Shown: piece by piece, positions 914 through 14,974 of the stretch
Numbering within the stretch: the stretch's first letter is position 1
Layout: every line of letters starts with the position of its first letter
Origin: Henriciella sp.
Lineage (GTDB): Bacteria; Pseudomonadota; Alphaproteobacteria; Caulobacterales; Hyphomonadaceae
Reading direction: 5' to 3'
Assembly: GCF_029936995.1 (NCBI RefSeq)
Contig: NZ_JAPYRE010000006.1
Coordinates: 1 to 40,000, forward strand
DNA length: 40,000 bases
The notes under the pieces: model-generated
What the model saw: the letters and a program-made list of their open reading frames with translations, nothing else
Databases searched by the model: none
Told to the model about the DNA's origin: nothing
Program-made: the position numbers and the translations under genes

Positions 914-921
914 CCCCGGGA

Positions 922-950: not shown

Positions 951-983
951 TCTCAGCAGAGGCCATACTCAAATTGCCGGAGG

Positions 984-1008
984 CCCCGGCCTGCGCCGGG
1001 GTCAGCGG
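984..1008 (-). repeat. REP-like palindromic element, copy A' (inverted partner of copy A)
   Basis: The reverse complement reads CCGCTGACCCCGGCGCAGGCCGGGG, two mismatches from copy B. The stem is CCCCGGC/GCCGGGG. It forms a convergent doublet with copy A, 33 bp apart. Confidence 0.75.
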
Positions 1009-1352: not shown

Positions 1353-1379
1353 CCGCTCACCCCGGCGAAGGCCGGGGGG
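1353..1379 (+). repeat. REP-like element copy B (5' portion), abutting the left end of the insertion; contains the left target-site duplication 1360..1377
   Basis: Sequence CCGCTCACCCCGGCGAAGGCCGGGGGG. The 5' arm CCGCTCA is present, but the usual 3' flank TCTC is missing here and is found instead after 14910. Confidence 0.8.
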
Positions 1380-1404
1380 TATAGTGATGTCTCAGAGAAA
1401 ATAT
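1374..1404 (+). repeat. left terminal inverted repeat
   Basis: GGGGGGTATAGTGATGTCTCAGAGAAAATAT compared with the reverse complement of 14866..14896, GGGGGGTATAGTGATGTCCGGTAGAAAATAT. There are 18 matches, then 4 mismatches, then 9 matches. The G6 run overlaps the duplicated target. Confidence 0.8.
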
Positions 1405-1438
1405 CTACGCGGTACAAGTAGAGCGAGCCCGAAGCTCG

Positions 1439-2464
1439 CTACGTCCGGTAGGTCCAGGGAGCGTTCAATTCGAACTGCTCCGATGTACAGAGGTAGAGCA
1501 GGTCGCGAACGGCGGTTATTGCATTTCCTGACTGATGTGGACGCGCATCCTGACTACGATGCATCAGCTCGTTACGTGCCTTTCTTAGTTCATTCAGCCG
1601 ATCGGTAAGGTATTTATCAAGCACCCCGTACTTCTCCAAATGTGCAATACGATCAGCTGCCCGCATTTCCTTCAACTTATTCTTGGAAATCGTCTCATCG
1701 CTACTTCTCTCGGCAAACCCAGCCTTGGCGGGATGCCCTACGACAAACCCAGCTGAGTACAACAACTCCTCTAAAAGCACTTCTGCAATTGTCGCACTGA
1801 GTGCGACGCTTGCTCCAGCGTGCTGACGAGAGTGGAGTACAACAGCTTGATAAGTCATCGTTATAAGAGCGGTGTAATCGGCAACTCTGTTTTCTGAATT
1901 GGCTGCCATCAGACGATCAGCAAGTTCAACACCCTCGCGGAACTGCTCGCTTGAAATTGAATTTTGCCATGCCGAGCGACCTTGTGGAGCTGCACTTGCC
2001 AGCAAAGCCCGTAGTCGTTGCTCGTCGCTCTTAAAAAACTCAACTTCGTTTGTGGTAGAGGATCGGTCCCAATTGAATAGCTCATCCAGCCCTGGGTAAC
2101 GTGGCTCCTTGATGGATGAATTTTTTGAGAAGGCGTACTTTCCGAATATGCAGGCTGATACAAATACCGCCTGCTCAAGTCGTCGGGTTTGAACTTCCAG
2201 CATGTTATCTCTGCTCTGAGTAACGACCTCAGGTATTACGCCCGGCGCGTCGCTATCAAATAGGTCGAACTTTCCAAGGTTGGTTTTTTCAAAATCGAAA
2301 GCGAGCAGACCTACATTGACTGCTACAACCGTCAGACCATTGTTGAGCGTATATTCGGCAGAAATTCGGGTAGTAAGCTTACGATCTCCGGAAGGCTGGT
2401 CATACGTGTAGTAGGCGTTCGGCAAGATCGCGAACCGGGTCGGGAACGGTCTAGAAATGATCAT
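1439..2464 (-). CDS. hypothetical protein with C-terminal HEPN-like Rx4H motif
   Basis: 341-aa ORF with low-GC codon usage. The C-terminal helical region contains LNELRKARNELMHRSQ, i.e. R-N-x-x-x-H (codons 1559..1576), the signature of HEPN RNase domains. I recognise nothing in the N-terminal ~280 aa. Confidence 0.45.
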   Translation of the reverse strand: MIISRPFPTRFAILPNAYYTYDQPSGDRKLTTRISAEYTLNNGLTVVAVNVGLLAFDFEKTNLGKFDLFDSDAPGVIPEVVTQSRDNMLEVQTRRLEQAVFVSACIFGKYAFSKNSSIKEPRYPGLDELFNWDRSSTTNEVEFFKSDEQRLRALLASAAPQGRSAWQNSISSEQFREGVELADRLMAANSENRVADYTALITMTYQAVVLHSRQHAGASVALSATIAEVLLEELLYSAGFVVGHPAKAGFAERSSDETISKNKLKEMRAADRIAHLEKYGVLDKYLTDRLNELRKARNELMHRSQDARPHQSGNAITAVRDLLYLCTSEQFELNAPWTYRT

Positions 2465-2479
2465 AGTATTTTCTTGAAC

Positions 2480-4090
2480 TCAGGAGGATATCGGCCAATC
2501 GGCCAATGGTATTTCACGCACCAATCTGTCCTTAACTTGATGGGTGGTCATGCCGTATCGTTTCGCTAATTCCTCGCAAGCGCTGTTGCGGCTCCTGAAC
2601 ACTTCTCCTTCAAACTTAAATGGTTTTGCGGAAGTAGGCCCCAAGGGAGCGGTCAAAGCCTCTTCAACACTCATTCCTGACTTAATGCGATAATCAAAAA
2701 CGTTTCGGCGGACGCCGTGCGCGTCCAAAGCAGCTTGTTTTGTCGTCCATGTCTTACCGAACGCGGCGAACTTCTTGCCATGTGTTCGCCGAACTACTTG
2801 CTTCGACGACATTAGCGTCCAATTGTCAGGTCCCCACGGTCGCGATTCATCTGAGCGCGTCAGCATTAGTCCAGACTGATCGATGGTCCCGATGTCGGAT
2901 TTAAATTGATTATAATCGAGCCAAGCTTCTTCTACGCCGCTCTCTCCCGCACGTTTGAGAATGCCTTTCCACTGCCGCCATAGTTCACCGCCAGCGTCTG
3001 GATGATTGCTTTGGGCTCGCGCTGTTTCAGGTAGGGGTTCGTTGTTTCGGTAGCGATTGATAATGACGTGAGTGGCCAACCCGGTTTCATCGGAGAGTAC
3101 TCTGGCCATCTTTTCTATCGATCTAAACTCTCGCCCCTGCCAATTTACTCGCTTTCCATCATATCGGCCAATCTGGCCTCCGGGACGGACATTGTATCCT
3201 TGTGGATGCAGGCTATTAAGCTTTTCAATCCAGAATATTTCTCGTTGATCCAGACCATCTGCCGATCTCCCGGCACTCTCCAAAGAAATCTCTTCTAGAA
3301 CTTGGAGCCTAAACGCAGCCCCACCTTTCTTTCGCAAGGCTTTATGAAAAGGTGTCTTGCTTCCAGTCTCAGCGTAATTGAGATGTTGTCGGAAGCGGAT
3401 TTGCGGTTTGTTGACTGTTAGCCCGACGTAGGTTTTTCCCGTCGCCTTTTCGATGATTGCGTAGATGTAGCCAGGTTCATTAGATTCGGTTGGTGGTTCA
3501 CGCAAAAGGTCGTCCGTATCCCACTGAGCCTTTCGTCGAGAGTTCAATAAGCCTTTGTCGGCGTAGCGTCCTATAGACTTCAAAAAGGCGGTGAAGCCAG
3601 AATAGTCGCCTTGAGCGTTTGGATATTCCGTACCAGAGTAAGAGAATCCGGAGCGCCGCCCACCTCCGTAGAAAGTCTTCCAGTCGGCGCTGGATAATAG
3701 GGCGGCATCGCGGAGTGCGGATTGGGATATTTCTGTTCTTCGCTTCGCTAATGAAGTGAGCCGAGTTCTGAAAACGGGATATTGAACGGAGCCATCGGCC
3801 AAATCAGCATAAAGCACGTCGACGCGTTGCTCGCCATCATCTGTCTCTACCCATGTCACTCGGGAGCCGTGTTTACGGCGATAAACCTCCGGCGTGGAGT
3901 ACAAACACTCCTCAACCACTTCTTCGGTTAATTCCCCTTGTTTCGCTCTCGTACGTAGACGCCCGCCGATTGTTACTGCTTTGTTTGTGGGTGGAGGTAC
4001 CGCTGCGTCTAATAGCTCCGACAAAGAGCGATATACATACCCACGAAAGGGAAGATTAGGGAGTTGGGCATTGTGGGCTCTCTTTGCCAA
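2480..4090 (-). CDS. multi-module GIY-YIG endonuclease (homing-endonuclease-like) with repeated putative DNA-binding modules
   Basis: 536 aa. The central GIY-YIG domain (about 3176..3478) reads PGYIYAIIEKATGKTYVGLTVNKPQIRFRQH...REIFWIEKLNSLHPQGYNVRPGG. There are four copies of a ~35-aa module: FRGYVYRSLSEL, WQGREFRSIEKMARVLSDETGLATHVIINRYR, FGKTWTTKQAALDAHGVRRNVFDYRIKSGMSVEEAL and FEGEVFRSRNSACEELAKRYGMTTHQVKDRL. Confidence 0.75.
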   Translation of the reverse strand: MAKRAHNAQLPNLPFRGYVYRSLSELLDAAVPPPTNKAVTIGGRLRTRAKQGELTEEVVEECLYSTPEVYRRKHGSRVTWVETDDGEQRVDVLYADLADGSVQYPVFRTRLTSLAKRRTEISQSALRDAALLSSADWKTFYGGGRRSGFSYSGTEYPNAQGDYSGFTAFLKSIGRYADKGLLNSRRKAQWDTDDLLREPPTESNEPGYIYAIIEKATGKTYVGLTVNKPQIRFRQHLNYAETGSKTPFHKALRKKGGAAFRLQVLEEISLESAGRSADGLDQREIFWIEKLNSLHPQGYNVRPGGQIGRYDGKRVNWQGREFRSIEKMARVLSDETGLATHVIINRYRNNEPLPETARAQSNHPDAGGELWRQWKGILKRAGESGVEEAWLDYNQFKSDIGTIDQSGLMLTRSDESRPWGPDNWTLMSSKQVVRRTHGKKFAAFGKTWTTKQAALDAHGVRRNVFDYRIKSGMSVEEALTAPLGPTSAKPFKFEGEVFRSRNSACEELAKRYGMTTHQVKDRLVREIPLADWPISS

Positions 4091-4122
4091 TTTGTCCTCA
4101 GTTTGCGTTGGTCTCAGCTAGC

Positions 4123-4344
4123 TTATTCATCGAGAGTTTGTTCATTCAAAAAATCTCGTGGGTGTACATTAAGCGCTTCAGCGATGCGCCCCAGCATTTC
4201 AACGGTCGGATTGTATTCACCCCGTTCAATGCCGCCGAGATAGCGCATATCCATGTCCGCTGTGAGTGCAAGTTGTTCCTGGCTCAGGCCCGCCTGCCTT
4301 CGAATTTTTCGAATGTTCAGGCCAACGACCTTTTCCCAAAACAT
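4123..4344 (-). CDS. XRE-family helix-turn-helix transcriptional regulator
   Basis: 73 aa with the classic Cro/C1 HTH: LNIRKIRRQAGLSQEQLALTADMDMRYLGGIERGEYNPTVEMLGRIAEAL. Confidence 0.85.
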   Translation of the reverse strand: MFWEKVVGLNIRKIRRQAGLSQEQLALTADMDMRYLGGIERGEYNPTVEMLGRIAEALNVHPRDFLNEQTLDE

Positions 4345-4378
4345 TCAGCCAATTAGTTAAACAAAATGCAACCTCACT

Positions 4379-4394
4379 AGGGTATATATACCCT
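4379..4394. promoter_or_regulatory. perfect 16-bp palindrome, candidate operator of the XRE regulator
   Basis: AGGGTATATATACCCT is its own reverse complement. It lies in the 93-bp divergent intergenic region between the XRE gene (start 4344) and the secreted-protein gene (start 4438). Confidence 0.5.
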
Positions 4395-4437
4395 ATTATG
4401 TGGCCTACCCCGTATGGATGGGCGAATGGAGGTTGCT

Positions 4438-5157
4438 ATGTATCGGTTCGTGACAGTTTTGCTTGTAGCGGGTGTGGCGTTTGCAAGCTCGGCAGATGCC
4501 GAACAAATCACACACCAAACGGAAGCCAACGCATCGCTAGAATTTAACTGGCCGGATATTAACTCTGACATCATTCCGGACGCTCGCGTGAAAGGCGCTG
4601 TCAGAGGTGCGAGAGAAAACTATCAAAGAGCAATTAATGCTGCCGAGCGGGCGAATGCATCCGCTGGGAAATTGCCAGGTTATATCGAAGAAGGAGAACC
4701 ATTCCGGGAGATTGTCTCTGAGGGTGTAATCCTCGAAGGCGTACTCTTCGATAAGGGAGTGCCCCCTCAACAGAAATTATTTGCCGGAGAAATCGAATAC
4801 GAGACGGGCTCTACCGCTCGCGGGCTTGTGGCATTCCTATACTATCCGGACATGTCGAATTGGGGGGAGGTGGTTGCAGACTTTGCACCCGAAAAACCCT
4901 ATTCGCAATTTGAAGGTGATATGAAGCGCCCGTCTGAAGCTGGCGCTTATCCAATGGAAGGCGTGCTCACATACCGCAATGGCGACACCTTCACTGGCTT
5001 GTTCTACACGTGGGGTGGGGCCAGCGGCATCTACGAAGCCGCGAATGGAAAGCGCAGTTTTTCAGGCGACTTCGATACCGTGGGTCTTATGATGCATCCC
5101 AAGAAAGGGGTGGTCGAAGATCAGAACGGTCAGCTTCTTTCGGTTGTTCTTGACTAG
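4438..5157 (+). CDS. secreted hypothetical protein (signal peptide; weak MORN-like repeats)
   Basis: ATG at 4438 is preceded by GGAGG at 4428..4432. The N-terminus MYRFVTVLLVAGVAFASSADA is a typical Sec signal. GVLTYRNGDTFTGLFYTWGGASGIYEAANGKRSFSGDF is weakly MORN-like. Confidence 0.55.
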   Translation: MYRFVTVLLVAGVAFASSADAEQITHQTEANASLEFNWPDINSDIIPDARVKGAVRGARENYQRAINAAERANASAGKLPGYIEEGEPFREIVSEGVILEGVLFDKGVPPQQKLFAGEIEYETGSTARGLVAFLYYPDMSNWGEVVADFAPEKPYSQFEGDMKRPSEAGAYPMEGVLTYRNGDTFTGLFYTWGGASGIYEAANGKRSFSGDFDTVGLMMHPKKGVVEDQNGQLLSVVLD

Positions 5158-5164
5158 ATACCTT

Positions 5165-6976
5165 TCATGAAAACACCGCAAGCGGCCTGGCATCTGGCTC
5201 AGGATATCCAGTGTCCCCCACCTTGTTCGCTTCTTTCCCAATCAACTGAACGCCGGTCACCTCAACGGTCCGGCGATATGTTTCTCCGGTATCGACCGGC
5301 CCGCCATTCTCGAACTTGTCTTCCGGGCTGAGATGATAGAGCGCTATCGCCTCAGCATAGGTCTTCAGCTGATCTAGGCTGATTGGCTCGCTGGTTTCGC
5401 GATCGAAGACCTTCCCGGCGAGACTGGCACTATCCCGTTCAAACGGCGCAATCGGTTTCGGCAACCTCATCTTTCGTGGCCGCCCCCGCCTAGACGGTTC
5501 AGCCTCTTCGACCGGCATATCCACCCAGGCTTCTGTCCTCGCCGTCGGCGCGGCCATGAATCCATAGGGCTTTACCCGTGCCTCGTATGGTTTCCCCGCA
5601 TTGAAATGCTTCATGTAGCGCAGCATTTCCGGGCTTGTTGCACCCCACCGCATCAAGGCCGGATTGGAGAGCGCTGGATGGAAATCGATGCGAACTTGAT
5701 CCGGCGTACCGTCCAGGGCGGCTTTCAGGATAAAGAACCAGAAATCATACTGCCAGCGATGGATACCCATTGCCCGTAAGTCTTCGATCGGCGGGGGAAC
5801 ACCGGGTGCTGGATCATCTTCCGAATAAGGCGGCATCCATTGCCCAAGCCCATGGGCTGAAGCTTTCCGAATGACCGGCAAGCCATCTTTACCGATATTG
5901 AACAAGGCATAGCGCTTGGCTGAAATCGCCCATGCAAACAAGGGTTCAATCTCTTCATCCGATCCGGGGGCATAGTTCACATCCTCGATTTGAAGAATGG
6001 AGCCCGCCTCCTTGTAGGGATTGAGGTGGGTGAACCAATCGACAACCGTGTTGACGCGAGCGTGAAAGTCACTCCGCGAAAGGCCATCAGGCCGGGCAAG
6101 TGCAATACTGTCTGTGTCGCAGAAGACCCAACTGAGGCCCGCATCCTGACCCACCCGTTCCGCACAGGCGAGCATGAGCCGCGCGGCGCCGGTGATCATG
6201 GCGGCGAGCACGGGATTGAAATATGTGCCGGGCCTCTCGCTTGCGGTTGAGTGGAAGGTGAAAGGCTTACCATCCAACCCGATGACATGCAGGTCTGCCG
6301 GATCGCTCAGATCATCGCGGACAATTTCGGCAAAGATGCCATAACAGGTCGAGTTCGCGAGGATTTTGAGCTGGCTCTGGATTGGGTCGCCCGCCGCTTT
6401 CGCCTCGTCCCGCATATCGATGAGCCGGACAAACATATCCTCCGTGTTCGGATCGAAGAGATATTCTTTCCGGCCCAAGAGATTTATCGGTCTCAGGTCG
6501 GGTTGTTTCGGTCCAGCCGTGAACCGCACGGCCTTTTCAATCTGCGGGACTTTGCCAGTCAGGAGTTTTGAAGCGACAATATCCGCCAGCGTGTACCAAA
6601 GAGGCTTTTCCGACACGACATGGTTTAGACCGATCGTCGCTGTCTGGCGCTCTTCGCTGTAGCGTGCCCGCACAGGCAAGGCGTCACTCTCCGGTCGAAG
6701 CTGCACGATCGCATGAAGCTCACCCCAGATGTCCTGACGGTTCAAATCTTCCAGGGTGACGTTTTCGAGAAAGCGCTGAATAGCTTCGGTGTCCTCGAAA
6801 TGATCGAAATGCGTCGCGACCAGGAAGGCATTCAGCCCCATGAGCGCATTGACGGTTGGATACATCGACTTGAAGTCGCAATAGACGACTTCGCGAATGG
6901 ACCGGCGGATGCGAACTTCCGCCCGCCCGCCATAATAGGTGGTCATGGTTTGCCCAAAGATTTGACGATTAAGCAT
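5165..6976 (-). CDS. polB: family-B DNA polymerase, polymerase (palm/fingers/thumb) portion
   Basis: 603 aa with YYGGRAEV (pre-motif A), VVYCDFKSMYPTV (motif A, DxxSxYP), LKILANSTCYGIF (motif B, KxxxNSxYG), VFCDTDSIAL (motif C, DTDS) and ISAKRYALF (KxY). The motifs are collinear with the phi29-type protein-primed PolB as I remember it. Confidence 0.9.
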   Translation of the reverse strand: MLNRQIFGQTMTTYYGGRAEVRIRRSIREVVYCDFKSMYPTVNALMGLNAFLVATHFDHFEDTEAIQRFLENVTLEDLNRQDIWGELHAIVQLRPESDALPVRARYSEERQTATIGLNHVVSEKPLWYTLADIVASKLLTGKVPQIEKAVRFTAGPKQPDLRPINLLGRKEYLFDPNTEDMFVRLIDMRDEAKAAGDPIQSQLKILANSTCYGIFAEIVRDDLSDPADLHVIGLDGKPFTFHSTASERPGTYFNPVLAAMITGAARLMLACAERVGQDAGLSWVFCDTDSIALARPDGLSRSDFHARVNTVVDWFTHLNPYKEAGSILQIEDVNYAPGSDEEIEPLFAWAISAKRYALFNIGKDGLPVIRKASAHGLGQWMPPYSEDDPAPGVPPPIEDLRAMGIHRWQYDFWFFILKAALDGTPDQVRIDFHPALSNPALMRWGATSPEMLRYMKHFNAGKPYEARVKPYGFMAAPTARTEAWVDMPVEEAEPSRRGRPRKMRLPKPIAPFERDSASLAGKVFDRETSEPISLDQLKTYAEAIALYHLSPEDKFENGGPVDTGETYRRTVEVTGVQLIGKEANKVGDTGYPEPDARPLAVFS

Positions 6977-7877
6977 CGTGATCCCTCCGCAGAAGCGGGC
7001 GAATATTCATTTCGCGCAGGAGGGCTTTGCCGAGACTGGCTTCACTGAGAATACGTTTGAGCGGCGTCGATAGACCGAAGTCCGCATAGGTTTTGGCGAG
7101 AGCCGTGTAACAATCCCAGGTCACTTGAACATCAGCCCGTGCATAGTCGAGATATTGCCAGCTAAGGGGGCCGCCATGCTCATCGGTCTCGTGTTTCCGT
7201 GTCGGCGTGTTCAGACGCTCTGCCAGTTTGCCGAGAGAGAACCGGCCTGAGAGAAGCGCTGCCGCCAAGGTCCGCACATCCAGAAAGGTCCCACGATTGT
7301 GTTCTGTTTTCTCATTGCGTTTGCGCATGCCTCGAGATTGCTGCTGATCACCCGGCGTGGCGAAATCCATAAGCGCGGCTGTGGCGTTGAGATGTTTGAC
7401 GCGAATGTTCGGATCGCTCTTCCAGCGGGTGGACCAGAATGTGAAGCCGCCACGCATACTGCCCCGCGCTTCGCTTGCTCCTTTGGCGATCCGGGCGATA
7501 TCAAAGGGTAGATTAAATCCGATGATCGCTCCATTGGCGCGATAGCCAATATCCAGAATGACACTCTTGCGGAAATCCTCGACGGTGAGAACCGTCAACC
7601 CGTTCGCGGTGGCATAATCGGAAATCAGCGTCTGTTCCGCCTGCGGTAAATCCGGCGCCGTGAAGATCACCTCCTTGATCAACACGCCGGCTTTACGGAT
7701 TTGAGCGACACCGAAGCGAAGCGTCTGGATCGCATCGCTTGTGGTTTCAGTGTCGAAGATGATTTGCCAATCCGATGTCAGGTCGAATTCAAAGCCTGCG
7801 GGGCGGAAGACCTTCGGTGTCCAGTTAGAAGGCTCGGAATAGGCCCGCACATGTATATGAGTTCTGAAAGTGCTCAT
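6969..7877 (-). CDS. polB: family-B DNA polymerase, N-terminal 3'-5' exonuclease portion
   Basis: IIFDTETT (ExoI, DxE), IIGFNLPFDIARI (ExoII, NxxxFD) and YLDYARADVQV (ExoIII, YxxxD). The likely start is ATG at 7877 (MSTFRTHIHV), overlapping the HNH stop as ATGA. The stop overlaps the next ORF's start as ATGCTTAA (6969..6976). Confidence 0.85.
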   Translation of the reverse strand: MSTFRTHIHVRAYSEPSNWTPKVFRPAGFEFDLTSDWQIIFDTETTSDAIQTLRFGVAQIRKAGVLIKEVIFTAPDLPQAEQTLISDYATANGLTVLTVEDFRKSVILDIGYRANGAIIGFNLPFDIARIAKGASEARGSMRGGFTFWSTRWKSDPNIRVKHLNATAALMDFATPGDQQQSRGMRKRNEKTEHNRGTFLDVRTLAAALLSGRFSLGKLAERLNTPTRKHETDEHGGPLSWQYLDYARADVQVTWDCYTALAKTYADFGLSTPLKRILSEASLGKALLREMNIRPLLRRDHDA

Positions 7878-8251: not shown

Positions 8252-8268
8252 GATGCAGTCCTCCTTCT

Positions 8269-8847: not shown

Positions 8848-8849
8848 GC

Positions 8850-8876
8850 TCGATCCGATTGCTGCGTTCGGATCGA
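8850..8876. promoter_or_regulatory. 9-bp inverted repeat immediately upstream of the HTH-HNH-PolB operon
   Basis: TCGATCCGA (8850..8858) and TCGGATCGA (8868..8876) are perfect reverse complements, starting 3 bp upstream of the start codon at 8847. Confidence 0.35.
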
Positions 8877-8936
8877 ATTTCGGAGAGCACGCCGTTCAGT
8901 AATAGATTTCAGAAACGTCCAACATAAAATCGGACA

Positions 8937-9632
8937 TTATTGAACGTTTTTGGACGGCCAGAGCCCTGCTTTTATGAGGTTATTTCTCGTGATGAAAAAT
9001 GAGGTTCGGCCGAACTTTTGATGTACGCCCTGCTTGCTGTATAGCTTCCGAGCCATTCGGACTGCTTCACTGCGTTGTTGGCTCGCACTCCACTGATGAA
9101 AATCGTTGTATACGTTCAAGCACTCTAGAAGAACCTTCCGCCGGTACATCTCATAAGAATGAGCGCCGCCCGGCTTCGCGTGTTTGTGCGGACTCTTTTG
9201 CTTGCGGTCAGTATTGCTGCTAAATGTTGCTGCGGTCTCTCGACCATGTGTACTGAGATCGATCAGTTTGATGCGGTCGTATCTAAGACTTTCATCGCCT
9301 GCGCTATTCTGGTCGATGTCTAGTTCGGCAGTTGGCCAGAAGCCCGCGGGTATTCGATCGAGCCGATTACCAGCTCCACCGAAGACGCAGCGTCCAATAG
9401 CCTCGACCTGTCCTCGGGATAAATCCGTCACGATCTCATCGCGGGCACGACGCCAGACATCCTTATGCTGTAGGCCGCGCAGCATGTAGTCCGCTGTCGC
9501 CTCTGACACAGGATGATTGGAGGCGTTCCACTTCTCCAGCAATTCCGGATTGTCAGGGAGAGACCGTTTTCGACTTTCAAAAAAGTCTCTCAGCCAGACG
9601 CCATCGGCCCATATATTCTCGATATTTTCCAA
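8937..9632 (-). CDS. hypothetical protein, divergent from cas1
   Basis: 231-aa ORF with low-GC codon usage and no motif I recognise. A 40-bp gap separates it from the divergently transcribed Cas1 gene. Confidence 0.5.
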   Translation of the reverse strand: MENIENIWADGVWLRDFFESRKRSLPDNPELLEKWNASNHPVSEATADYMLRGLQHKDVWRRARDEIVTDLSRGQVEAIGRCVFGGAGNRLDRIPAGFWPTAELDIDQNSAGDESLRYDRIKLIDLSTHGRETAATFSSNTDRKQKSPHKHAKPGGAHSYEMYRRKVLLECLNVYNDFHQWSASQQRSEAVRMARKLYSKQGVHQKFGRTSFFITRNNLIKAGLWPSKNVQ

Positions 9633-9672
9633 TGATCTATGCTATGGTTTGGCCAGAAAAGTGGGGTGAGTT

Positions 9673-10755
9673 TTGGCTTTCGAAGCTGGTCAAGAAAACG
9701 AGACAATCGAAGCTGACGAATGGTCTATTCGTAGCAAATATTGGTTAGCCAAAAACGAAGCTGGTCTGTCAAAACGAAAACGCCGCGAGCGCCGCAAAGA
9801 CCCGCTCATTCTGGTCGGTTACGGCCTTTCGATGAAGGTCGACAATGGCCGTCTGATCATCCAGGACGGCGCCACGCATTTTCCGAGTAAACCCGCTCAA
9901 CACGTCTTCTTCAAAGGTAGTCTCGACTTACCGCCGCGGATCATTGTTTTGGATGGTGCGGGCTCAATCACACTCGACGCCTTGGATTGGCTGACAGAAC
10001 AGAACGTCCCGCTCATTCGTATCAGATACAATGGCGAGTTCTTCTCGCTGGTCACATCTGGCGGTCAGGCCGCTGACCCGGATAAGTTTGCCTGGCAGAT
10101 TAGAGCCCGCGAAGACGACGCTGAGAAACTGACCTTCTATCTACCACTCATGCGCGACAAGCTAGCTAACGCGCTCGCAACACTCGACGGTTATCTGCCT
10201 GCTTCTGAGGCTCGCGATAAAGCTGAAGAGAAAATCGGCAGCTATCTGCACCGGCTGCAGAATGATCCGCCGGATAAGCTAAAGTCTCTGCTCGGTATCG
10301 AAGCACAATCCGCCAGTCTCTATTTCGCCGCATGGCGGGCGCTGGAAATCAATTGGCGGGAAAGCAAGCGTCATCCTATTCCGGTGGAGTGGCGCAGCTT
10401 CTATTCGCGGGGCTCGCTCGCCGTTCTGAACAAAGGCGGGGCCAACATCTTCGCGACACATCCCGTCAATGCGATGCTGAATTACGTCTACGCAGTCCTC
10501 CTCGGAAGAATGCAGCTTCAAGCGATCACGGAAGGCTATGATCCGATGCTTGGTGTGGTCCACACGCGACGACGCTCAAGCTATGGCCCGCCTCGGCCCG
10601 GCTACGCGATCGACATCATGGAGCCGCACCGTCCGGTAGTCGATCGGATCGTTCTGAAATTGATCAATGAGGAGACGTTTTCCGGGGCGGATTTTGATTT
10701 GCAGAGTGATGGGGTGGTGCGGGTTAATCCGGAATTTGCTCGAAGCCTGGCTTAA
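9673..10755 (+). CDS. cas1: Cas1-family integrase homologue (stand-alone; casposase-like)
   Basis: 360 aa with a TTG start. The N-terminal beta domain reads PLILVGYGLSMKVDNGRLIIQDG ... PRIIVLDGAGSITLDALDWLTEQNVPLIRIRYNG. The helical domain has the Cas1 catalytic pattern: GIEAQSASLYF (Glu210), HPVNAMLNYVYAVLLG, PMLGVVHT (His297) and YAIDIMEPHRPVVD (Asp314/Glu317). Confidence 0.85.
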   Translation: MAFEAGQENETIEADEWSIRSKYWLAKNEAGLSKRKRRERRKDPLILVGYGLSMKVDNGRLIIQDGATHFPSKPAQHVFFKGSLDLPPRIIVLDGAGSITLDALDWLTEQNVPLIRIRYNGEFFSLVTSGGQAADPDKFAWQIRAREDDAEKLTFYLPLMRDKLANALATLDGYLPASEARDKAEEKIGSYLHRLQNDPPDKLKSLLGIEAQSASLYFAAWRALEINWRESKRHPIPVEWRSFYSRGSLAVLNKGGANIFATHPVNAMLNYVYAVLLGRMQLQAITEGYDPMLGVVHTRRRSSYGPPRPGYAIDIMEPHRPVVDRIVLKLINEETFSGADFDLQSDGVVRVNPEFARSLA

Positions 10756-10798
10756 CAGATTGATACCTGCGAGTAGTCGGAAATCACTGAAGAAACAG

Positions 10799-13700
10799 CT
10801 AAGAAATTCCCGGCTTGTTTTCCTGAGAAATTCTTTCTTCAGCTTCCCGATCAGCCCAGCCTTGGTCACTGGTGGCTATCGAGCGCAACAACGATTGCGT
10901 ACGCGGAAAGTCGTCTAGCTCATCCGCCCACCGCCGAAATTTTTTGGCTGACTCAGCGTAGTAGTCTTCCATAGGTCCCGAAATAACTCCGCGAGAATTG
11001 AACTGTCCTGTGCGCAAGGCAGAGATCAGCCGCTCATTTGGATACTTCTCAATCACTTTACGTACGGCGGTATGTGGCCAGATGTTATCCGTGGGATCGA
11101 CTGGCGATTTAGAAAGCAACTGCCCGATGGCTATTGAGGCTCCTTTTTCGAACCGCTTATCCCGCGCAATCTCAAAGAGCTTCTCAACCCACAACATCAA
11201 CGCGTCATCATCGATACGCCCTTCACTCGAACCAGGCATTACGTTCATGTTTTCAATGATGTGGAAAGCCGGTCGCCACATTCCTTCGTCGGGCTGATCG
11301 TCGCCCAACGAAGAGGCCTGCCTGGGCTCGTCTTTCGGGGCATCATCCTGCTTGTACAGAATTGGAATTAGCTCGAAGAACTCTGCAGGCTCTTTCGCAA
11401 GGAATCTGTACAGCGCAGGAGTTCTTTCCGGACCATTGAATCTAAGCGTCTCAGCTAGCGGAAATTCGAGCTTTGCAAGCTCGCTCAAACTCAAAGCACC
11501 GCGGTCTTCAGCGATGCCTAGGAGTTCCCAGTAGTGATATAAGTCAAGCTGTCCTCTTGGCCGTCCCTCACTATGAGCGTTCGACACACTTTTTAGGTAC
11601 TCGTTCGCAGTTAGCCGAACAGTTTCGATTGGCACGGAAGGATCGTTCGCCACCACATGAGCTAAGTCGTGGATGCGGCCCACGCTTTTGAACCCGTCGA
11701 CAACGGCCTGCGAAAGGTTATCGCCCACGAATGAGTATGCATTGGCTGATCTCCAAAATCCTGAAGATACTTGCGGTGGTAATCCCCCAGTTGTCGCGGC
11801 ATCCAGAATTGGGGTCGCGTTATAGAGCCCTTCCCCAACTAACTCGCTGAGGTGTTTAGAGAACGCGTCAGTCTTGGAATTGATAATAGCAACCCATTCG
11901 GCTGGATTTTTTATGGCAGCTCCTCGGGACATTCCTCGGATGAGTTCTTGGCCGTGCTCACTATCCGGGGACACCGTCAAGATGTGATCCATAATTGCTG
12001 AGGAGTTGGGCGTGGCTTGGGCTAAAGCTACCCCAGCGGCAAAAGGCGATGCCACTTTTTGCAAGAAGTCTGAAAGCTCATCTGCGTACTTATTGAGTAT
12101 GCCTTCAAGAGCCAACCTTCGCAGTTCAGCCAAATCGCTTTGCGGATCATCGGTTCGCTCGCGAAATGTCTCGACCCAGCTCGATTTAAACAGCCAAAGA
12201 TAACGGTTGGAGTTATCTGGTTGAAGTCTTTCAAACTCCATCTCCAACTGACTTAATCGTTCATCCTCAATCGCCCAATCAGCATCGGAAAACTGACGAT
12301 GGCGTCCGGTGAATGTTCTCAATGCTTCGACCAATTCGTCCGCGCCGGTGTCATCGCCATTGATGCTGGATATGTGCGCAACAAAGCGCTCGAATAAGTC
12401 GTTCACCATGGAAGGCACGCATTCTACCAACTTTGCCAGATCAGCGGCATTTGTCGAAGCAACACTGATTGCTTGATCAACCGCTTCATCACGAACTTCG
12501 TAAAAATCACCCCAAGTTAAGCGTTGCTCCTGGACCCTTGAGAAAATTGGTTTGCTGGTGCTCATCACAATGCGCCCGCCCCTATTGTCCAATAGAGGAA
12601 CTAGCAATTCCAAAACGTGCGGACCGAACTCGTTTGCTAGACCGCGAATGATCTTCGCTCGTTGCTTTGTTCCTGCAGCTGTTTGAGGCACACCAAAGGA
12701 CAGAATTCCCTGGAGCGACGATAAAGGCTGATTTCCTTGCCTTTCATCGATTGGGGACACTGCCAAATGAAGCTTCATCAAGAGCCGACAAACAAGCTCT
12801 ACATGCTCGGACAACCAGGCGAGGCGTTCGAGGGCCCACAAAAGAGACGCCCCCAAATGAAAATCCATGAAACTAAACTTGGACTCTTGCGCCTTAAAGA
12901 CTGCGGCCATTCCTTCGGCGTTCCCCTCGATGGCCGCTTCGAGGGACTCCAGAAAAGGCTGAGGAGCGCCTTCGGCGAGTAGGGGCAACCATTCTTCGAT
13001 GGCAGCACCAAATTTGGGATTATCCAGAAGCTGAGGGACGCTCGATTGATAGACGCTGCGACACCAATCAGCACATTTCTGTCCGTGAGGACGAAGACTC
13101 AAGTCGGGGTCTTCGCCAAATACCCCGATCAAAACAAAGGTAAGTATCACCCCTCCGACAAAGTCACTGCTGAAGCCGGAATATTCTGAAGGGTCGAAAA
13201 CTTGATCTCTATCTACACCCTGCTGAACTTTATCGTTCAACACTACACGGAGTAGATTCTCGAAAGCATCGTAGTCGTCGTCAGTGTAATAGCGTGCAAG
13301 CCTAAAAAATGCGTCGACTGGTCCATTTAGCGTTACGATGCTAGTCGTCGCAACAAACATGGGGTCTGCCGAACCAGCTCGGGCCAGTGGATTTCGCCCG
13401 TACTTGCGAACGACCGACTCGATCTGTGAATACGTTTCAACACCTGCGTGTTGCTTTAGTGCTTCAACATCCTTGTAGATGAAGTTTCTCTTAGCTCCGT
13501 GCTCGCCTCGCTCTTCACGTCGGACAGCTCGACTTACGTTCCAAGCAGCAATCATTCCAAGGCGTTTGAGAAGTGGGGCGTCCGTTAAATCTGGATCAGC
13601 CCATGGGCATTTCTCCCCTTCGACAGTACCTCTAAGCCGTTCTAGTGCAGACAAATTTCGCCCGGCCGCTTTTTCAATGGTTTCGGCGTTCTGCGAACCA

Positions 13701-14689
13701 ACCGGTTTAATATGTTTTGCGAATGTCGACACATCAGGTCGTTGGAGCAAATAGCAACTCGCTAGACCGGGGTCGGACGAAATAGCTTTAGCAACCAAAA
13801 CGGAGTGCCGCTCCAACCGATTTGGATAAGCCGCCGCTTCTCCTTCGAGGATTACGATATGTCGAGTTCCAACCTTTTTGAGCAGATTCAATCCGGCTTC
13901 GTTTTGGACGCAGACGACCGGAATATGCTCTAGTTCTGGAGAGCTCAAACATAGTTGGCAAGCTGCCACGGCTGCCTCTCTGTCTGAATTCCCAAGCAAG
14001 TAGCTAATGGGTTCTTCTCTCAGGAGTGCATCGCGTAGTTCGAGCAGTGACGATTGCCCGTCGAGAAGGATTTCTGGCGAGACTTCGTCTCGAAAACGAC
14101 GCTTCCAAAGACTTATTCGTTCTTCGGCAGAACAGACTCCGTATGCAGAAGCATTGGGGATTAATCCGATTTCTTCAAGCAGCCATAGGCAAGTATCGAC
14201 ATCCCGGTTTACCCAGTCAATTAATCGAGACTGATCAAAAAGCACCACCTTCTTGAACTTCGTGTCCTTGGTGGCCTTTTCCTGCCAAAGCACCTTTTTC
14301 TCTTCGCCCTTTTTGCCGACCTCAATCTCGCCTGACCAGGTAGCCCGCCCAACCATGACGAATGCAAAATCGCTAGGCTTAGCCAACGCGTTTTCGACTC
14401 TTTCGAGTTCCTCGTTTGCTTTCTTGATGAGACCGGACCGCGAAGATGTAGCACCATATTCGATGCAAACGTTGCCCTCTGGTATTCCTTCACATTTTTC
14501 CTCAAGTACAACTACACCATCAAATCCCGTGACCCGATAGTTTTCACCGTCGACAGTGTAGGTGTTCGCGAGTTTTACTCCTCCCGTTGATACGTTGAGT
14601 AAGCGCTTGAACAACTCGGGAAGGATTTTTTCCCAGTCTGCATTCTTTTCGGTAGATTCGAAATGCGTCTTTTCAATTAGTCGAGCCAC
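10799..14689 (-). CDS. very large hypothetical protein (~1300 aa), mostly alpha-helical
   Basis: The track ORF is 10799..14728 (GTG). An in-frame GTG at 14689 is preceded by AAGGAG (14695..14700) with 5-nt spacing, so it is the more likely start. No Walker, helicase, methylase or clear nuclease motif is seen by eye. Confidence 0.7.
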   Translation of the reverse strand: MARLIEKTHFESTEKNADWEKILPELFKRLLNVSTGGVKLANTYTVDGENYRVTGFDGVVVLEEKCEGIPEGNVCIEYGATSSRSGLIKKANEELERVENALAKPSDFAFVMVGRATWSGEIEVGKKGEEKKVLWQEKATKDTKFKKVVLFDQSRLIDWVNRDVDTCLWLLEEIGLIPNASAYGVCSAEERISLWKRRFRDEVSPEILLDGQSSLLELRDALLREEPISYLLGNSDREAAVAACQLCLSSPELEHIPVVCVQNEAGLNLLKKVGTRHIVILEGEAAAYPNRLERHSVLVAKAISSDPGLASCYLLQRPDVSTFAKHIKPVGSQNAETIEKAAGRNLSALERLRGTVEGEKCPWADPDLTDAPLLKRLGMIAAWNVSRAVRREERGEHGAKRNFIYKDVEALKQHAGVETYSQIESVVRKYGRNPLARAGSADPMFVATTSIVTLNGPVDAFFRLARYYTDDDYDAFENLLRVVLNDKVQQGVDRDQVFDPSEYSGFSSDFVGGVILTFVLIGVFGEDPDLSLRPHGQKCADWCRSVYQSSVPQLLDNPKFGAAIEEWLPLLAEGAPQPFLESLEAAIEGNAEGMAAVFKAQESKFSFMDFHLGASLLWALERLAWLSEHVELVCRLLMKLHLAVSPIDERQGNQPLSSLQGILSFGVPQTAAGTKQRAKIIRGLANEFGPHVLELLVPLLDNRGGRIVMSTSKPIFSRVQEQRLTWGDFYEVRDEAVDQAISVASTNAADLAKLVECVPSMVNDLFERFVAHISSINGDDTGADELVEALRTFTGRHRQFSDADWAIEDERLSQLEMEFERLQPDNSNRYLWLFKSSWVETFRERTDDPQSDLAELRRLALEGILNKYADELSDFLQKVASPFAAGVALAQATPNSSAIMDHILTVSPDSEHGQELIRGMSRGAAIKNPAEWVAIINSKTDAFSKHLSELVGEGLYNATPILDAATTGGLPPQVSSGFWRSANAYSFVGDNLSQAVVDGFKSVGRIHDLAHVVANDPSVPIETVRLTANEYLKSVSNAHSEGRPRGQLDLYHYWELLGIAEDRGALSLSELAKLEFPLAETLRFNGPERTPALYRFLAKEPAEFFELIPILYKQDDAPKDEPRQASSLGDDQPDEGMWRPAFHIIENMNVMPGSSEGRIDDDALMLWVEKLFEIARDKRFEKGASIAIGQLLSKSPVDPTDNIWPHTAVRKVIEKYPNERLISALRTGQFNSRGVISGPMEDYYAESAKKFRRWADELDDFPRTQSLLRSIATSDQGWADREAEERISQENKPGIS

Positions 14690-14865
14690 GTCCGCTCCTT
14701 GTTCAGGCCCAAGTTGATTCGGTATCACTTATGTTGAGTAGAGCAACATTATTTGGTGAGCTCAGCAAATTAGCCCGCCTCATTGGCTCATTGAACGGTG
14801 AAACCACTAGATGTCACATCGATCATGATCGAGGAGCTTTCAGTATCGCTCGCCTGATGAGCGCA

Positions 14866-14896
14866 ATATTTTCTACCGGACATCACTATACCCCCC
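14866..14896 (-). repeat. right terminal inverted repeat
   Basis: ATATTTTCTACCGGACATCACTATACCCCCC. Its reverse complement matches 1374..1404 at 27/31 positions. Confidence 0.8.
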
Positions 14897-14914
14897 GGCG
14901 AAGGCCGGGGTCTC
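14893..14914 (+). repeat. right target-site duplication = 3' portion of REP copy B
   Basis: CCCCGGCGAAGGCCGGGG is 18/18 identical to 1360..1377 and is followed by the TCTC flank seen in REP copies A and C. The CCGCTCA 5' arm is absent because the element end abuts directly. Confidence 0.8.
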
Positions 14915-14945: not shown

Positions 14946-14974
14946 GAGATCCCGGCCTTCGCCGGGATGAGCGG
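14946..14974 (-). repeat. REP-like palindromic element, copy C
   Basis: The reverse complement is 29/29 identical to copy A (922..950). It lies 31 bp beyond the TCTC flank of the restored copy B (14914), about 35 bp beyond its hairpin, mirroring the 33-bp spacing of the A/A' doublet. Confidence 0.85.

What the first reader, a model, noticed from the sequence alone, without database searches (positions are those of the whole stretch)
1353..14914. Precise insertion junctions: a palindromic REP hairpin is the target and is duplicated, allowing empty-site reconstruction
Seen in sequence: the left junction is GTCCGCTCA[CCCCGGCGAAGGCCGGGG]GGTATAGTGATGTC... and the right junction is ...GACATCACTATACC[CCCCGGCGAAGGCCGGGG]TCTCCATGAG. 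The bracketed 18 bp (1360..1377 and 14893..14910) are identical. The left copy keeps the REP 5' arm CCGCTCA but lacks the 3' flank TCTC. The right copy has TCTC but lacks CCGCTCA. Joining the two halves yields a complete REP unit like copies A and C. Because the target is a hairpin (CCCCGGC-GAAG-GCCGGGG), the outer G6/C6 of the TIR could be either element or target, so the true duplication is somewhere between about 10 and 18 bp. Inference: a Cas1 enzyme inserting into a short palindromic repeat and duplicating it is mechanistically reminiscent of spacer integration, where the palindromic CRISPR repeat is duplicated. This junction may therefore be informative about how repeat recognition evolved.
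Basis: partly seen in the sequence, partly recalled or inferred. Interest (0 to 1): 0.8.

Follow-up and report, generated by a model that had tools for sequence, protein, structure and literature searches.

The report
Casposon inserted in a duplicated REP hairpin
A 13.5-kb self-replicating transposon that uses a Cas1 enzyme (a casposon) sits in a small palindromic host repeat and has duplicated its central 14 bp, and about 40 relatives do the same at other GC-rich hairpins, which gives a natural model for how Cas1 enzymes came to duplicate palindromic CRISPR repeats.

Summary
Identical 18-mers (1360-1377, 14893-14910) abut perfect inverted ends GGTATAGTGATGTC. The left copy keeps only the REP 5' flank CCGCTCA and the right copy only the 3' flank TCTC.

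The element (1376-14894) is an intact bacterial family-3 casposon in a Henriciella genome. It carries Cas1, a family B polymerase and low-GC cargo.

I compared 36 relatives from genomes, 3 closer relatives from assemblies and 7 metagenomic ends. The ends are conserved as G4-TATAG, which fixes the true duplication here at 14 bp: CCGGCGAAGGCCGG.

The rule holds across the family:
- The flanking repeats are direct, not inverted (4 versus 235 mismatches over 37 elements).
- They are 14-17 bp long.
- In 26 of 37 elements they are centred within 2 bp on a perfect GC-rich stem of at least 7 bp. These are REPs or intrinsic terminators, always with the C-rich arm 5'. The rate in intergenic controls is 0.8% (P about 1e-46).
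- The G4/C4 of the element ends rebuilds the stem, so both flanks keep a full hairpin. Tandem hairpin-element-hairpin arrays occur.

The papers I could read call family-3 insertions only "intergenic", and they annotated the HenMar-C1 palindrome as part of the inverted repeat.

No empty site was found. Whether the enzyme reads a hairpin structure or a symmetric sequence is inferred, not shown.

The parts
922..950 (+). REP copy A, complete unit CCGCTCA-TCCCGGCGAAGGCCGGGA-TCTC, just after the DinB_2 gene (380-913)
980..1008 (-). REP copy B, in inverted orientation. It forms a head-to-head doublet with copy A, 55 bp start to start.
1056..1340 (+). Host gene for a small GIY-YIG protein (94 aa from the ATG). 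Its stop codon lies 20 bp before the duplicated hairpin.
1353..1359 (+). REP 5' flank CCGCTCA, present only at the left copy
1360..1377 (+). Left copy of the maximal 18-bp direct repeat CCCCGGCGAAGGCCGGGG
   Evidence: D19
1362..1375 (+). Inferred true target-site duplication, left copy: CCGGCGAAGGCCGG (14 bp)
   Evidence: The family rule K = duplication + 2 x 4 G = 22. NitAL212-C1 has a 14-bp repeat next to GGGGTATG.
1376..14894 (.). Casposon proper, 13,519 bp, GC 0.50-0.57
1376..1404 (+). Left terminal inverted repeat GGGGTATAGTGATGTCTCAGAGAAAATAT. The first 16 nt are identical to the right end, and 25 of 29 overall.
   Evidence: (I1)
1439..2464 (-). Cargo ORF, 341 aa, with weak DUF4145/HepT-like matches below the curated cut-off
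2480..4090 (-). Cargo ORF, 536 aa, with a GIY-YIG nuclease domain (PF01541, 1.3e-8; TIGR01453, 5.5e-12)
4123..4344 (-). HTH_3 (Xre-type) DNA-binding protein, 73 aa
5165..6976 (-). Family B DNA polymerase, polymerase part (603 aa): motif A DFKSMYP, motif B KILANSTCYG, motif C FCDTDS
6969..7970 (-). Family B DNA polymerase, 3'-5' exonuclease part (333 aa): Exo I FDTET, Exo II NLPFD, Exo III YARAD. It overlaps the polymerase ORF at ATGCTTAA.
7874..8251 (-). Conserved core ORF, 125 aa, no family. A gene of the same size sits in the same position in relatives L088 and L101-L104.
8269..8847 (-). Conserved core ORF, 192 aa, no family. Relatives have a 192-193 aa gene in the same position.
8937..9632 (-). 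ORF of 231 aa, no family. L102-L104 have a 203-238 aa gene on the same strand in this position.
9673..10755 (+). Casposase (Cas1 homologue, 360 aa). The putative catalytic residues E210, H297 and D314 are invariant in 41 relatives. It has no C-terminal HTH. It has a 44-aa N-terminal Trp/Arg-rich extension.
10799..14728 (-). Cargo ORF, 1309 aa, no family match
14866..14894 (-). Right terminal inverted repeat (reverse complement GGGGTATAGTGATGTCCGGTAGAAAATAT)
14893..14910 (+). Right copy of the 18-bp direct repeat
14895..14908 (+). Inferred true target-site duplication, right copy: CCGGCGAAGGCCGG
14911..14914 (+). REP 3' flank TCTC, present only at the right copy
14946..14974 (-). REP copy C, the inverted partner of the interrupted REP (57 bp start to start)
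   Evidence: (I2, I7)
15744..18167 (-). Host gyrB (807 aa), the right-hand landmark of the locus

Best explanation
Positions 1376-14894 are an intact family-3 (bacterial) casposon in a Henriciella chromosome.

Its Cas1-type integrase joined the two 3' ends of the element (...CTATACCCC-3') to the two strands of one host REP hairpin. The joins are 14 bp apart and symmetric about the hairpin's dyad axis. Gap repair then duplicated the central 14 bp, CCGGCGAAGGCCGG, which is the loop plus the inner stem.

The element ends in G4/C4 and the target stem is 5'-CCCC...GGGG-3'. The ends therefore replace the outer stem base pairs. Both flanks keep a complete 18-bp hairpin, and the apparent repeat is 18 bp.

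This is the rule for the whole lineage. The integrase prefers GC-rich palindromes, either REPs or intrinsic terminators, with a C-rich 5' arm. The boundary consensus is C-Y|C...G|R-G and the stagger is 14-15 bp, up to 17.

My committed reading is that intrastrand pairing is sensed in addition to the short symmetric boundary motif. That pairing could be an extruded cruciform or a transient hairpin. The two arms are perfectly complementary within each target, yet they share no sequence between targets.

Shown: the direct duplication, its size limits, its centring on the dyad, the polarity, the regenerated hairpins and the tandem reuse of targets.

Inferred: that Cas1 is the enzyme, by homology with tested casposases; the symmetric complex; and structure sensing.
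For: Junctions and REP family.

Foreign composition.

Genes:
- Cas1: PF01867, 2e-31.
- The nearest solved structure is the 6OPM casposase, E = 2e-17.
- PolB motifs.
- Cas1 is 58% identical to the Cas1 of the published HenMar-C2.

Family comparison, from 468 genome hits with 80 loci fetched:
- 37 elements with G(n)TATAG or G(n)ATAAG ends have perfect flanking direct repeats.
- The inferred duplication is 14 bp in 13 elements, 15 in 12, 16 in 6, 17 in 5 and 19 in 1.
- Over the 37 elements the direct reading gives 4 mismatches and the inverted reading 235.
- 26 of 37 have a perfect stem of at least 7 bp with its axis within 2 bp of the duplication centre. The rate is 0.45% at random host positions and 0.78% at intergenic positions, P about 1e-46.
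- 22 of 26 target hairpins have a C-rich 5' arm and none a G-rich one. Host hairpins split 50 / 40 / 88 (C-rich / G-rich / balanced).
- The loose boundary motif alone gives hairpins in only 7% of host sites.

The three closest relatives (Cas1 68-73% identical) each have an 18-bp repeat with a 7-bp stem and a 4-nt loop of different sequence.

Seven metagenomic ends were found, and 5-6 of them abut hairpins.

Elements with identical ends sit in different hairpins. The window's right end matches the L019 and L096 end.

Tandem arrays.

Both junction hairpins keep their stability.

Tested casposases give 14-15 bp duplications (PMC6977970; PMC9939771).
Against: - No empty site was recovered for this or any related element, so pre-insertion states are reconstructions. 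Every contig carrying the flanking genes carries the element, and all come from one study. The empty-site pattern had no hit in metagenomes. The nearest relative without the element (GyrB 93% identical) is not alignable in this interval.
- About a quarter of the targets are not hairpins (L025, L029, L031, L043, L067, L085, L086). A hairpin is therefore favoured, not required.
- The M. mazei casposase binds straight B-form target DNA (PMC6977970). This argues against a cruciform requirement in that family.
- The strict motif CCCC-N10/11-GGGG is a hairpin in 10 of 20 host sites. Sequence and structure are therefore partly confounded.
- In the published HenMar-C1 strings the loop reads better as inverted than as direct. 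That text was machine-read and I could not fetch the locus.
Confidence: 0.85

Rival explanations
1. The integrase reads only a short symmetric sequence on ordinary double-stranded DNA: C-Y-C on each strand, 14-15 bp apart. Hairpins are hit because GC-rich stems with C-run and G-run arms are where that motif occurs. No DNA structure is sensed.
For: - The boundary positions are nearly invariant: C at the first duplicated base in 36 of 37 elements and G at the last in 33 of 37.
- Non-hairpin targets keep these bases (L031, L086).
- The M. mazei casposase holds straight B-form target DNA.
- The strict CCCC...GGGG motif is a hairpin in 10 of 20 host sites.
Against: - The loose motif that actually fits the targets gives hairpins in 7% of host sites, against 70% of targets.
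- The position after the first duplicated base is C in only 15 of 37 elements, so the strict motif is not the rule.
- The inner stems differ completely between targets but are perfectly complementary within each one.
Confidence: 0.25
2. The palindrome belongs to the element as part of a long terminal inverted repeat, and the real duplication is 0-2 bp. This is how HenMar-C1 was annotated in 2014 (37-bp TIR with an internal palindrome, 1-nt direct repeat).
For: A palindromic duplication automatically extends the inverted repeat. One search reports a 46-nt inverted repeat that includes it.
Against: - The asymmetric loops are repeated in direct, not inverted, orientation: 4 versus 235 mismatches over 37 elements. 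In the window the loop GAAG is the same on both sides.
- The hairpin differs between elements that share identical ends.
- The left copy carries only the host REP 5' flank and the right copy only the 3' flank.
- The same hairpin family occurs elsewhere in host DNA and never inside the element (4 host copies in the window, 0 inside).
Confidence: 0.03
3. Insertion is essentially random. Only insertions that land harmlessly in, and rebuild, terminators or REPs survive selection.
For: Hairpin-preserving insertions should be neutral. All known family-3 elements are intergenic (PMC4779613).
Against: Neutral intergenic positions without hairpins outnumber centred hairpin positions by more than 100 to 1 (0.78%). 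They hold only about 30% of the elements. The same duplicated site is reused in tandem arrays. Tested casposases are site-preferring (PMC5137440).
Confidence: 0.05
4. Two REP copies already lay 13.5 kb apart, or side by side, and the element happens to lie between them. Nothing was duplicated.
For: REPs are multicopy in this genome, with 5 copies in 40 kb.
Against: - Both copies abut the element ends to the base, and each lacks the flank on its element side.
- Native doublets in this genome are inverted and about 55 bp apart, not direct.
- The same arrangement recurs in 40 unrelated loci with unrelated hairpins.
Confidence: 0.02

Closest known systems
Family-3 (bacterial) casposons: HenMar-C1 and HenMar-C2 (Henriciella marina), HypCY54-C1 (Hyphomonas sp. 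CY54-11-8), CitBat-C1, NitAL212-C1 (Krupovic et al. 2014, PMC4046053; 2016, PMC4779613)
   Same: - Cas1 without extra domains, plus PolB, plus terminal inverted repeats and flanking direct repeats.
- Alphaproteobacterial host and intergenic location.
- Cas1 is 58% identical to that of HenMar-C2 (L088).
- The PolB polymerase part is 73% identical, with the same split into two ORFs.
- NitAL212-C1 has the same kind of end (GGGGTAT...) and a 14-bp repeat.
- HypCY54-C1 is my locus L020.
   Different: - The sequences differ, as do the cargo and the REP hit.
[quoted passage not shown] This element has a GIY-YIG protein instead.
- The papers I could read describe the targets only as 'intergenic' and treat the HenMar-C1 palindrome as part of the inverted repeat. 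The analysis here reassigns the palindrome to the duplicated target.
Family-2 archaeal casposons (Aciduliprofundum boonei, Methanosarcina mazei), the experimentally tested casposases
   Same: - A Cas1-type integrase that makes 14-15 bp target duplications and prefers specific sites.
- Tandem reinsertion at the duplicated site.
- 6OPM is the best solved match.
   Different: - The family-2 target is the 3' end of a tRNA gene. An upstream determinant sits outside the duplicated segment, and the palindrome (the T-psi-C arm) is not duplicated.
- In this lineage the palindrome itself is duplicated and the site is two-fold symmetric.
- This casposase lacks the C-terminal HTH of the M. mazei enzyme. 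The alignment ends at residue 306 of 431.
CRISPR spacer integration by Cas1-Cas2
   Same: - A homologous enzyme makes staggered attacks on the two borders of a short, often palindromic repeat.
- The repeat is duplicated by gap repair.
- Reuse of the duplicated site gives repeat-insert-repeat arrays.
- In vitro, Cas1-Cas2 integrates next to a cruciform-prone inverted repeat in pUC19, as cited in PMC5137440.
   Different: - There is no Cas2, no leader and no CRISPR array in the window.
- The duplicated segment is 14-17 bp rather than 24-47 bp.
- The insert is a 13.5-kb element with inverted ends, not a 30-bp spacer.
- Rfam gave no CRISPR-repeat match at the left-junction region, the only part scanned (window 800-1600).
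REP-targeting insertion sequences (IS1397/ISKpn1 of the IS3 family, ISPpu9/ISPpu10, IS621 of the IS110 family). This comparison rests on my own knowledge and was not checked here.
   Same: Mobile elements that choose REP hairpins as safe, multicopy intergenic landing sites.
   Different: The enzymes are unrelated (DDE or DEDD transposases). The duplications are short or absent, and the whole hairpin core is not duplicated.

Membership tests
Casposon (superfamily) | Encodes a Cas1 homologue of the casposase type, not linked to cas2 or a CRISPR array | tested here: met
   PF01867, E = 2.1e-31. The best PDB match is the 6OPM casposase, 2.2e-17. There is no tandem or CRISPR-like array in 40 kb. 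No Cas2 appeared among the element ORFs scanned.
Casposon (superfamily) | Encodes a family B DNA polymerase | tested here: met
   Pfam matches for the window ORFs are below the cut-off. The orthologous ~910-aa proteins match PF03175 in 10 of 22 (best 6e-9) and PF00136 in 5 of 22. The window ORFs carry Exo I-III and motifs A, B and C. A profile search against the PDB found nothing.
Casposon (superfamily) | Terminal inverted repeats | tested here: met
   The first 16 nt are perfect and 25 of 29 overall. The terminal G4-TATAG is conserved in most of the 37 analysed relatives.
Casposon (superfamily) | Target-site duplication of about 14-15 bp | tested here: met
   The maximal repeat is 18 bp. It resolves to 14 bp with the family's four terminal G.
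Casposon (superfamily) | Demonstrated mobility: an empty site, or the same element at different sites | tested here: inconclusive
   No empty site was found. Elements with identical or near-identical ends do sit at different hairpins.
Family-3 casposons | Cas1 clusters with the bacterial casposon Cas1 proteins | tested here: met
   58% identity to the HenMar-C2 Cas1 (P0028, locus L088) and 49% to HypCY54-C1 (P0073, L020). No phylogenetic tree was built.
Family-3 casposons | [quoted passage not shown] | tested here: not met
   No HNH was detected in any ORF scanned. An HTH_3 protein is present (4123-4344). This feature is accessory, not defining for the superfamily.
CRISPR-Cas adaptation module | Cas1 together with Cas2, next to a leader and repeat array | tested here: not met
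   No Cas2 and no array. The element works like spacer integration but is not a member of that system.
REP (repetitive extragenic palindrome) as the target | A multicopy intergenic GC-rich hairpin with conserved flanks, often in inverted doublets | tested here: met
   5 copies in 40 kb against 0.1 expected. The flanks CCGCTSA and YCTC are conserved and there are two inverted doublets. Hairpin energy is -10.7 kcal/mol. Association with a RAYT transposase was not tested.

The most novel reading that the evidence does not exclude
This bacterial casposase lineage senses DNA structure. It would integrate at extruded cruciforms or hairpins of almost any sequence that have a C-rich 5' arm, cutting at a fixed 7-8 nt from the dyad. 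It would then be the surviving example of the ancestral state from which palindromic CRISPR repeats arose. In that scenario the repeat descends from a duplicated palindromic target fused to the G-rich tip of the element end. This would account for the hairpin-GGGATAA junctions, which resemble hairpin-ATAA type CRISPR repeats, and for the hairpin-element-hairpin arrays.
Probability: 0.35. Interest if true: 0.9.

Novelty: new variant of a known kind. Interest (0 to 1): 0.72.

Why it matters
Casposons are the proposed ancestors of the CRISPR adaptation machinery. The tested ones insert next to tRNA genes, and their duplicated segment is not a palindrome. It has therefore been unclear where palindromic CRISPR repeats came from. 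Two proposals exist: solo inverted repeats of the element, or the original target of the integrase (PMC6977970).

This is a widespread bacterial lineage, with 468 hits among species-representative genomes. In it, the duplicated target is itself a short GC-rich palindrome, the duplication is centred on the dyad, and reuse of the site gives repeat-insert-repeat arrays.

That supports the target-origin model. It also reinterprets the noted 'CRISPR-like palindromic TIR' of HenMar-C1 as target DNA.

It offers a small casposase (360 aa, no HTH) and simple hairpin substrates for a direct test of how a Cas1-family enzyme recognises a palindromic repeat.

On the practical side, it gives a rule for finding casposon ends in bacteria, and a reason why REPs and terminators are hot spots for large insertions.

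Tried and rejected
**Empty site**
- Exact look-ups of the left-flank GIY-YIG protein and the right-flank 180-aa protein gave only contigs that carry the element, all from one study.
- A gapped pattern for the reconstructed site found nothing in JGI metagenomes.
- The nearest GyrB relatives (91-93% identical) lack a casposon, but the interval is not alignable and holds no copy of this REP.

**Empty site for a relative** (L047, Ruegeria atlantica), through its flanking dimethylglycine-dehydrogenase-like gene
- The closest contig is 89% identical in the gene and has a different neighbour.

**CRISPR-repeat resemblance**
- Rfam at E up to 10 on 800-1600 gave only chance microRNA and sRNA matches on the REP doublet, and no CRISPR-DR family.

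**PolB confirmation**
- PDB sequence and profile searches found nothing. NCBIfam found nothing. Motifs and Pfam matches in orthologues settled the question.

**Recombinase-mediated integration**
- No tyrosine or serine recombinase and no transposase was found in the element ORFs scanned. The idea was rejected.

**Literature**
- No paper in the searchable library links casposons to REPs, terminators, cruciforms or hairpin targets.
- The 2017 review (PMC5665730) and the supplement of the 2016 paper are not held. Prior mention there cannot be excluded.

**HenMar-C1**
- The locus itself could not be fetched, so its loop discrepancy stays open.

Full report
**1. The observation**

- Left: CCGCTCA (1353-1359), then CCCCGGCGAAGGCCGGGG (1360-1377), then GGTATAGTGATGTC.
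- Right: GACATCACTATACC, then the same 18-mer (14893-14910), then TCTC (14911-14914).

The repeat finder lists the pair as a perfect 18-bp direct repeat. It lists the ends as a 46-nt inverted repeat that runs through the palindrome.

The 18-mer with up to 3 mismatches occurs five times in 40 kb, against 0.1 expected. The three other copies are complete units of the form CCGCTSA-YCCCGGCGMAGGCCGGGR-YCTC. They stand in head-to-head doublets: 922-950 with 980-1008, and the interrupted copy with 14946-14974.

The left junction copy has only the 5' flank and the right copy only the 3' flank. Deleting the element and one repeat therefore restores a normal unit and a normal doublet spacing (57 bp versus 55 bp).

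GC content drops from about 0.65 to 0.50-0.57 between the junctions.

**2. What the element is**

It encodes the following:
- a Cas1 homologue (9673-10755, PF01867, 2e-31);
- a conserved block of genes upstream of it on the other strand;
- a 536-aa GIY-YIG protein;
- a small Xre-type HTH protein;
- large ORFs with no family match.

The best solved relative of the Cas1 is the Methanosarcina mazei casposase 6OPM (E = 2e-17). The alignment stops where that enzyme's C-terminal HTH begins, and the window protein has an extra 44-residue N-terminal segment rich in Trp and Arg. E210, H297 and D314 are invariant in 41 relatives.

ORFs 6969-7970 and 5165-6976 are the exonuclease and polymerase halves of a family B polymerase. 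Their orthologues in most relatives are a single protein of about 910 aa that matches PF03175 or PF00136. The window ORFs carry Exo I-III and motifs A, B and C.

There is no CRISPR array and no Cas2.

The host is a Henriciella. The Cas1 and GyrB proteins are identical to NCBI Henriciella sp. entries, and the contig is JAPOGI010000005.

The Cas1 is 58% identical to the one in the H. marina element at AQXT01000002:2.82 Mb. The cargo of that element (SGNH hydrolase, glycosyltransferase) identifies it as the published HenMar-C2.

The element is therefore a new member of the bacterial family-3 casposons.

**3. Relatives and their targets**

A scan of species-representative genomes with a Cas1 alignment found 468 relatives. 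Eighty loci were fetched, almost all Alphaproteobacteria.

Thirty-six of them, plus the window, have both ends within reach. [quoted passage not shown]

*Size of the duplication.* The number of bases between the left TATAG and the right CTATA, counted across one copy of the repeat, is 22 or 23 in 23 of the 34 TATAG-type elements. It is 24-25 in ten more. Three elements fix the number of terminal G:
- L031 needs at least four terminal G for a perfect duplication.
- L043 allows at most four.
- The published NitAL212-C1 (14-bp repeat next to GGGGTATG) also allows at most four.

With four G the duplications are 14 bp (13 elements), 15 (12), 16 (6), 17 (5) and 19 (1). This matches the 14-15 bp measured for archaeal casposases.

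For the window this gives a 14-bp duplication, CCGGCGAAGGCCGG, at 1362-1375 and 14895-14908. The element then spans 1376-14894.

**4. The targets are hairpins**

*Centring.* In 26 of 37 elements a perfect stem of at least 7 bp has its axis within 2 bp of the centre of the duplication. With one mismatch allowed, 29 of 37 have a stem of at least 6 bp. The rate for a perfect stem of at least 7 bp is 0.45% at 10,800 random host positions and 0.78% at heuristically intergenic positions (binomial P about 1e-46).

*Kinds of target.* Some targets are REP-like, with further copies in the nearby host DNA in 9 of 37 loci. Others are intrinsic terminators with a T-run after the stem (L020, L021, L023, L024, L026, L039, L042, L047).

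*Direct, not inverted.* Summed over the 37 elements, the direct reading has 4 mismatches and the inverted reading 235. The palindrome is therefore not part of the terminal inverted repeat.

*Polarity.* The 5' arm is C-rich in 22 of 26 target hairpins and never G-rich. Host GC-rich hairpins split 50 C-rich, 40 G-rich and 88 balanced.

*Boundary bases.* The consensus is C-Y|C...G|R-G. That motif alone yields hairpins at only 7% of host sites.

*Additional relatives.*
- The three closest relatives (Cas1 68-73% identical, fetched by exact protein look-up) each show an 18-bp repeat with a 7-bp stem and a 4-nt loop: CCTGCGAAGGCAGG, CCCCTGCCTGCGCAGGGG and CCCCAGCGCAGGCTGGGG.
- Seven metagenomic ends carrying GGGGTATAGTGATGTCCGG mostly abut hairpins. 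One is a complete 3.46-kb element with the 14-bp hairpin duplication CTCCCACAGGGGAG.
- Elements with the same ends sit in different hairpins.

*Tandem arrays.* Five loci show the arrangement element-hairpin-element (L019, L029, L038, L043, L076).

**5. How it most likely works**

Shown by sequence:
- Two joins on opposite strands, 14-15 bp apart and symmetric about the dyad of a GC-rich palindrome.
- Repair duplicates the loop and inner stem.
- The G4/C4 tips of the element replace the outer stem pairs, so both flanks retain a hairpin of nearly full stability (-10.5 and -9.7 kcal/mol versus -10.7).
- This preserves a terminator or REP on each side. It also regenerates a target, which explains the tandem arrays.

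Inferred by homology with the tested casposases: the Cas1 protein does the joining as a symmetric oligomer.

My committed inference is that intrastrand pairing is sensed in addition to the short boundary motif. The inner stems have no common sequence between targets, yet they are perfectly complementary within each one.

The main rival is recognition of a symmetric sequence on B-form DNA. Its support is the straight target in the M. mazei complex, the roughly one quarter of targets that are not hairpins, and the partial confounding of a strict CCCC...GGGG motif with hairpins.

Survivorship alone fails. Neutral non-hairpin intergenic positions are more than 100 times as common as centred hairpins.

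**6. Comparison with what is known**

The element is a member of the casposon superfamily: Cas1, PolB, inverted ends and a duplication of about 14 bp were all tested and met. By Cas1 similarity it belongs to family 3. It lacks a detectable HNH nuclease.

It works like CRISPR spacer integration in duplicating a short palindromic repeat and in building arrays. It is not a member of that system.

In the papers I could read:
- Family-3 targets are described only as intergenic.
- 'Some TIRs contain internal palindromic sequences'.
- HenMar-C1 is drawn with a 37-bp inverted repeat containing the palindrome and a 1-nt direct repeat.
- The palindromic organisation of such inverted repeats was noted as CRISPR-like.
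- Hickman et al. proposed that the CRISPR repeat derives from the casposase's original target.

The present data put those pieces together: the palindrome is the target.

I found no paper that states this. The 2017 review and the 2016 supplement were not available.

**7. Limits**

- No empty site was found for any element.
- The choice of four terminal G assumes a uniform tip in the family.
- Only loci with recognisable G(n)TATAG or ATAAG tips were analysed. Other tip types exist, for example L078, which also sits in a hairpin repeat.
- The published HenMar-C1 strings read slightly better as inverted in the loop. I could not fetch that locus.

**8. Verdict**

- The duplication is refined to 14 bp.
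- The element is a new member of a known family.
- Dyad-centred duplication of GC-rich hairpins appears to be an undescribed property of the bacterial lineage. It bears directly on the origin of palindromic CRISPR repeats.

Noticed in passing
window 5165-7970 (-); L088 5224-7951; L017; L085: The casposon's family B polymerase is split into an exonuclease ORF (333 aa) and a polymerase ORF (603 aa). They overlap at ATGCTTAA, which is a coupled stop and start. All catalytic motifs are intact. The same split occurs in HenMar-C2, L017 and L085, whereas most relatives have one ORF of about 910 aa. It may be a two-subunit PolB or a programmed frameshift rather than decay.
   Followed up: partly
L088 (H. 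marina AQXT01000002:2818309-2839400) versus window 380-18167: HenMar-C2 lies in the same neighbourhood as the window's element, between the DinB_2 gene and gyrB. It sits in a different REP (CTCCCGAATCCGGGAG), directly after DinB_2. At that position the window has an unoccupied REP doublet (922-1008). This looks like two independent insertions within about 1 kb of the same landmark. In L089 a gene with RecF-like domains lies near gyrB, which hints that the region may be near the replication origin.
   Followed up: partly
L019 5256-5290; L029 3304-3336; L038 3809-3840; L043 14663-14694; L076 14073-14105: Tandem arrays: the right end of one casposon, one copy of the duplicated hairpin, then the left end of another casposon. 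In L029 the two neighbours have different end sequences, so different elements reused the same duplicated target.
   Followed up: partly
L100 153-3630 (Ga0299913_10039009): A short element of only about 3.46 kb with the same GGGGTATAGTGATGTCCGG ends and a perfect 14-bp hairpin duplication CTCCCACAGGGGAG. It is too small to hold both Cas1 and PolB, so it may be a non-autonomous derivative. Its content was not examined.
   Followed up: no
L104 2234-5315; L102 7648-10623; window 1439-4090 and 10799-14728: The cargo of relatives looks like anti-phage defence. L104 has SIR2_2 with a HerA/FtsK-like ATPase. L102 has CTD12, MC6/MC8 and DUF2326 proteins. The window's cargo is a 1309-aa protein with no family, a 536-aa GIY-YIG protein and a 341-aa protein with weak DUF4145/HepT-like matches. 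This cargo was not tested against defence models.
   Followed up: no
window 15001-16000 (ORF 15153-15695, -): The kilobase just outside the right junction is also low in GC (0.525, against about 0.65 in the host). It holds a 180-aa ORF with no family match. H. marina has a 191-aa gene in the same place next to gyrB. This may be a remnant of older foreign DNA.
   Followed up: no
window 1056-1340; L102 10809-11111: A small (94-100 aa) host GIY-YIG gene lies next to the casposon end and next to REPs of the same family (CCCCGGCG...GCCGGGGTCTC), both in the window and in the unrelated contig L102. This may be coincidence or a link between these small nucleases and the REPs.
   Followed up: no
Genome-contig scan: 468 stretches in 185,579 species-representative genomes encode relatives of this Cas1. 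They are mostly in Hyphomonadaceae, Sphingomonadales, Rhodospirillaceae and Rhodobacterales. This is far more than the handful of bacterial casposons listed in the 2014 and 2016 papers.
   Followed up: partly
window 9673-9804 (Cas1 residues 1-44) and alignment A1: The casposases of this lineage share a conserved N-terminal extension (W17, R20, W24 and a KRKRRER-like basic run at residues 35-39). This extension falls outside the region that aligns to the M. mazei casposase 6OPM. They lack that enzyme's C-terminal HTH. The extension is a candidate for the part that reads the target.
   Followed up: no
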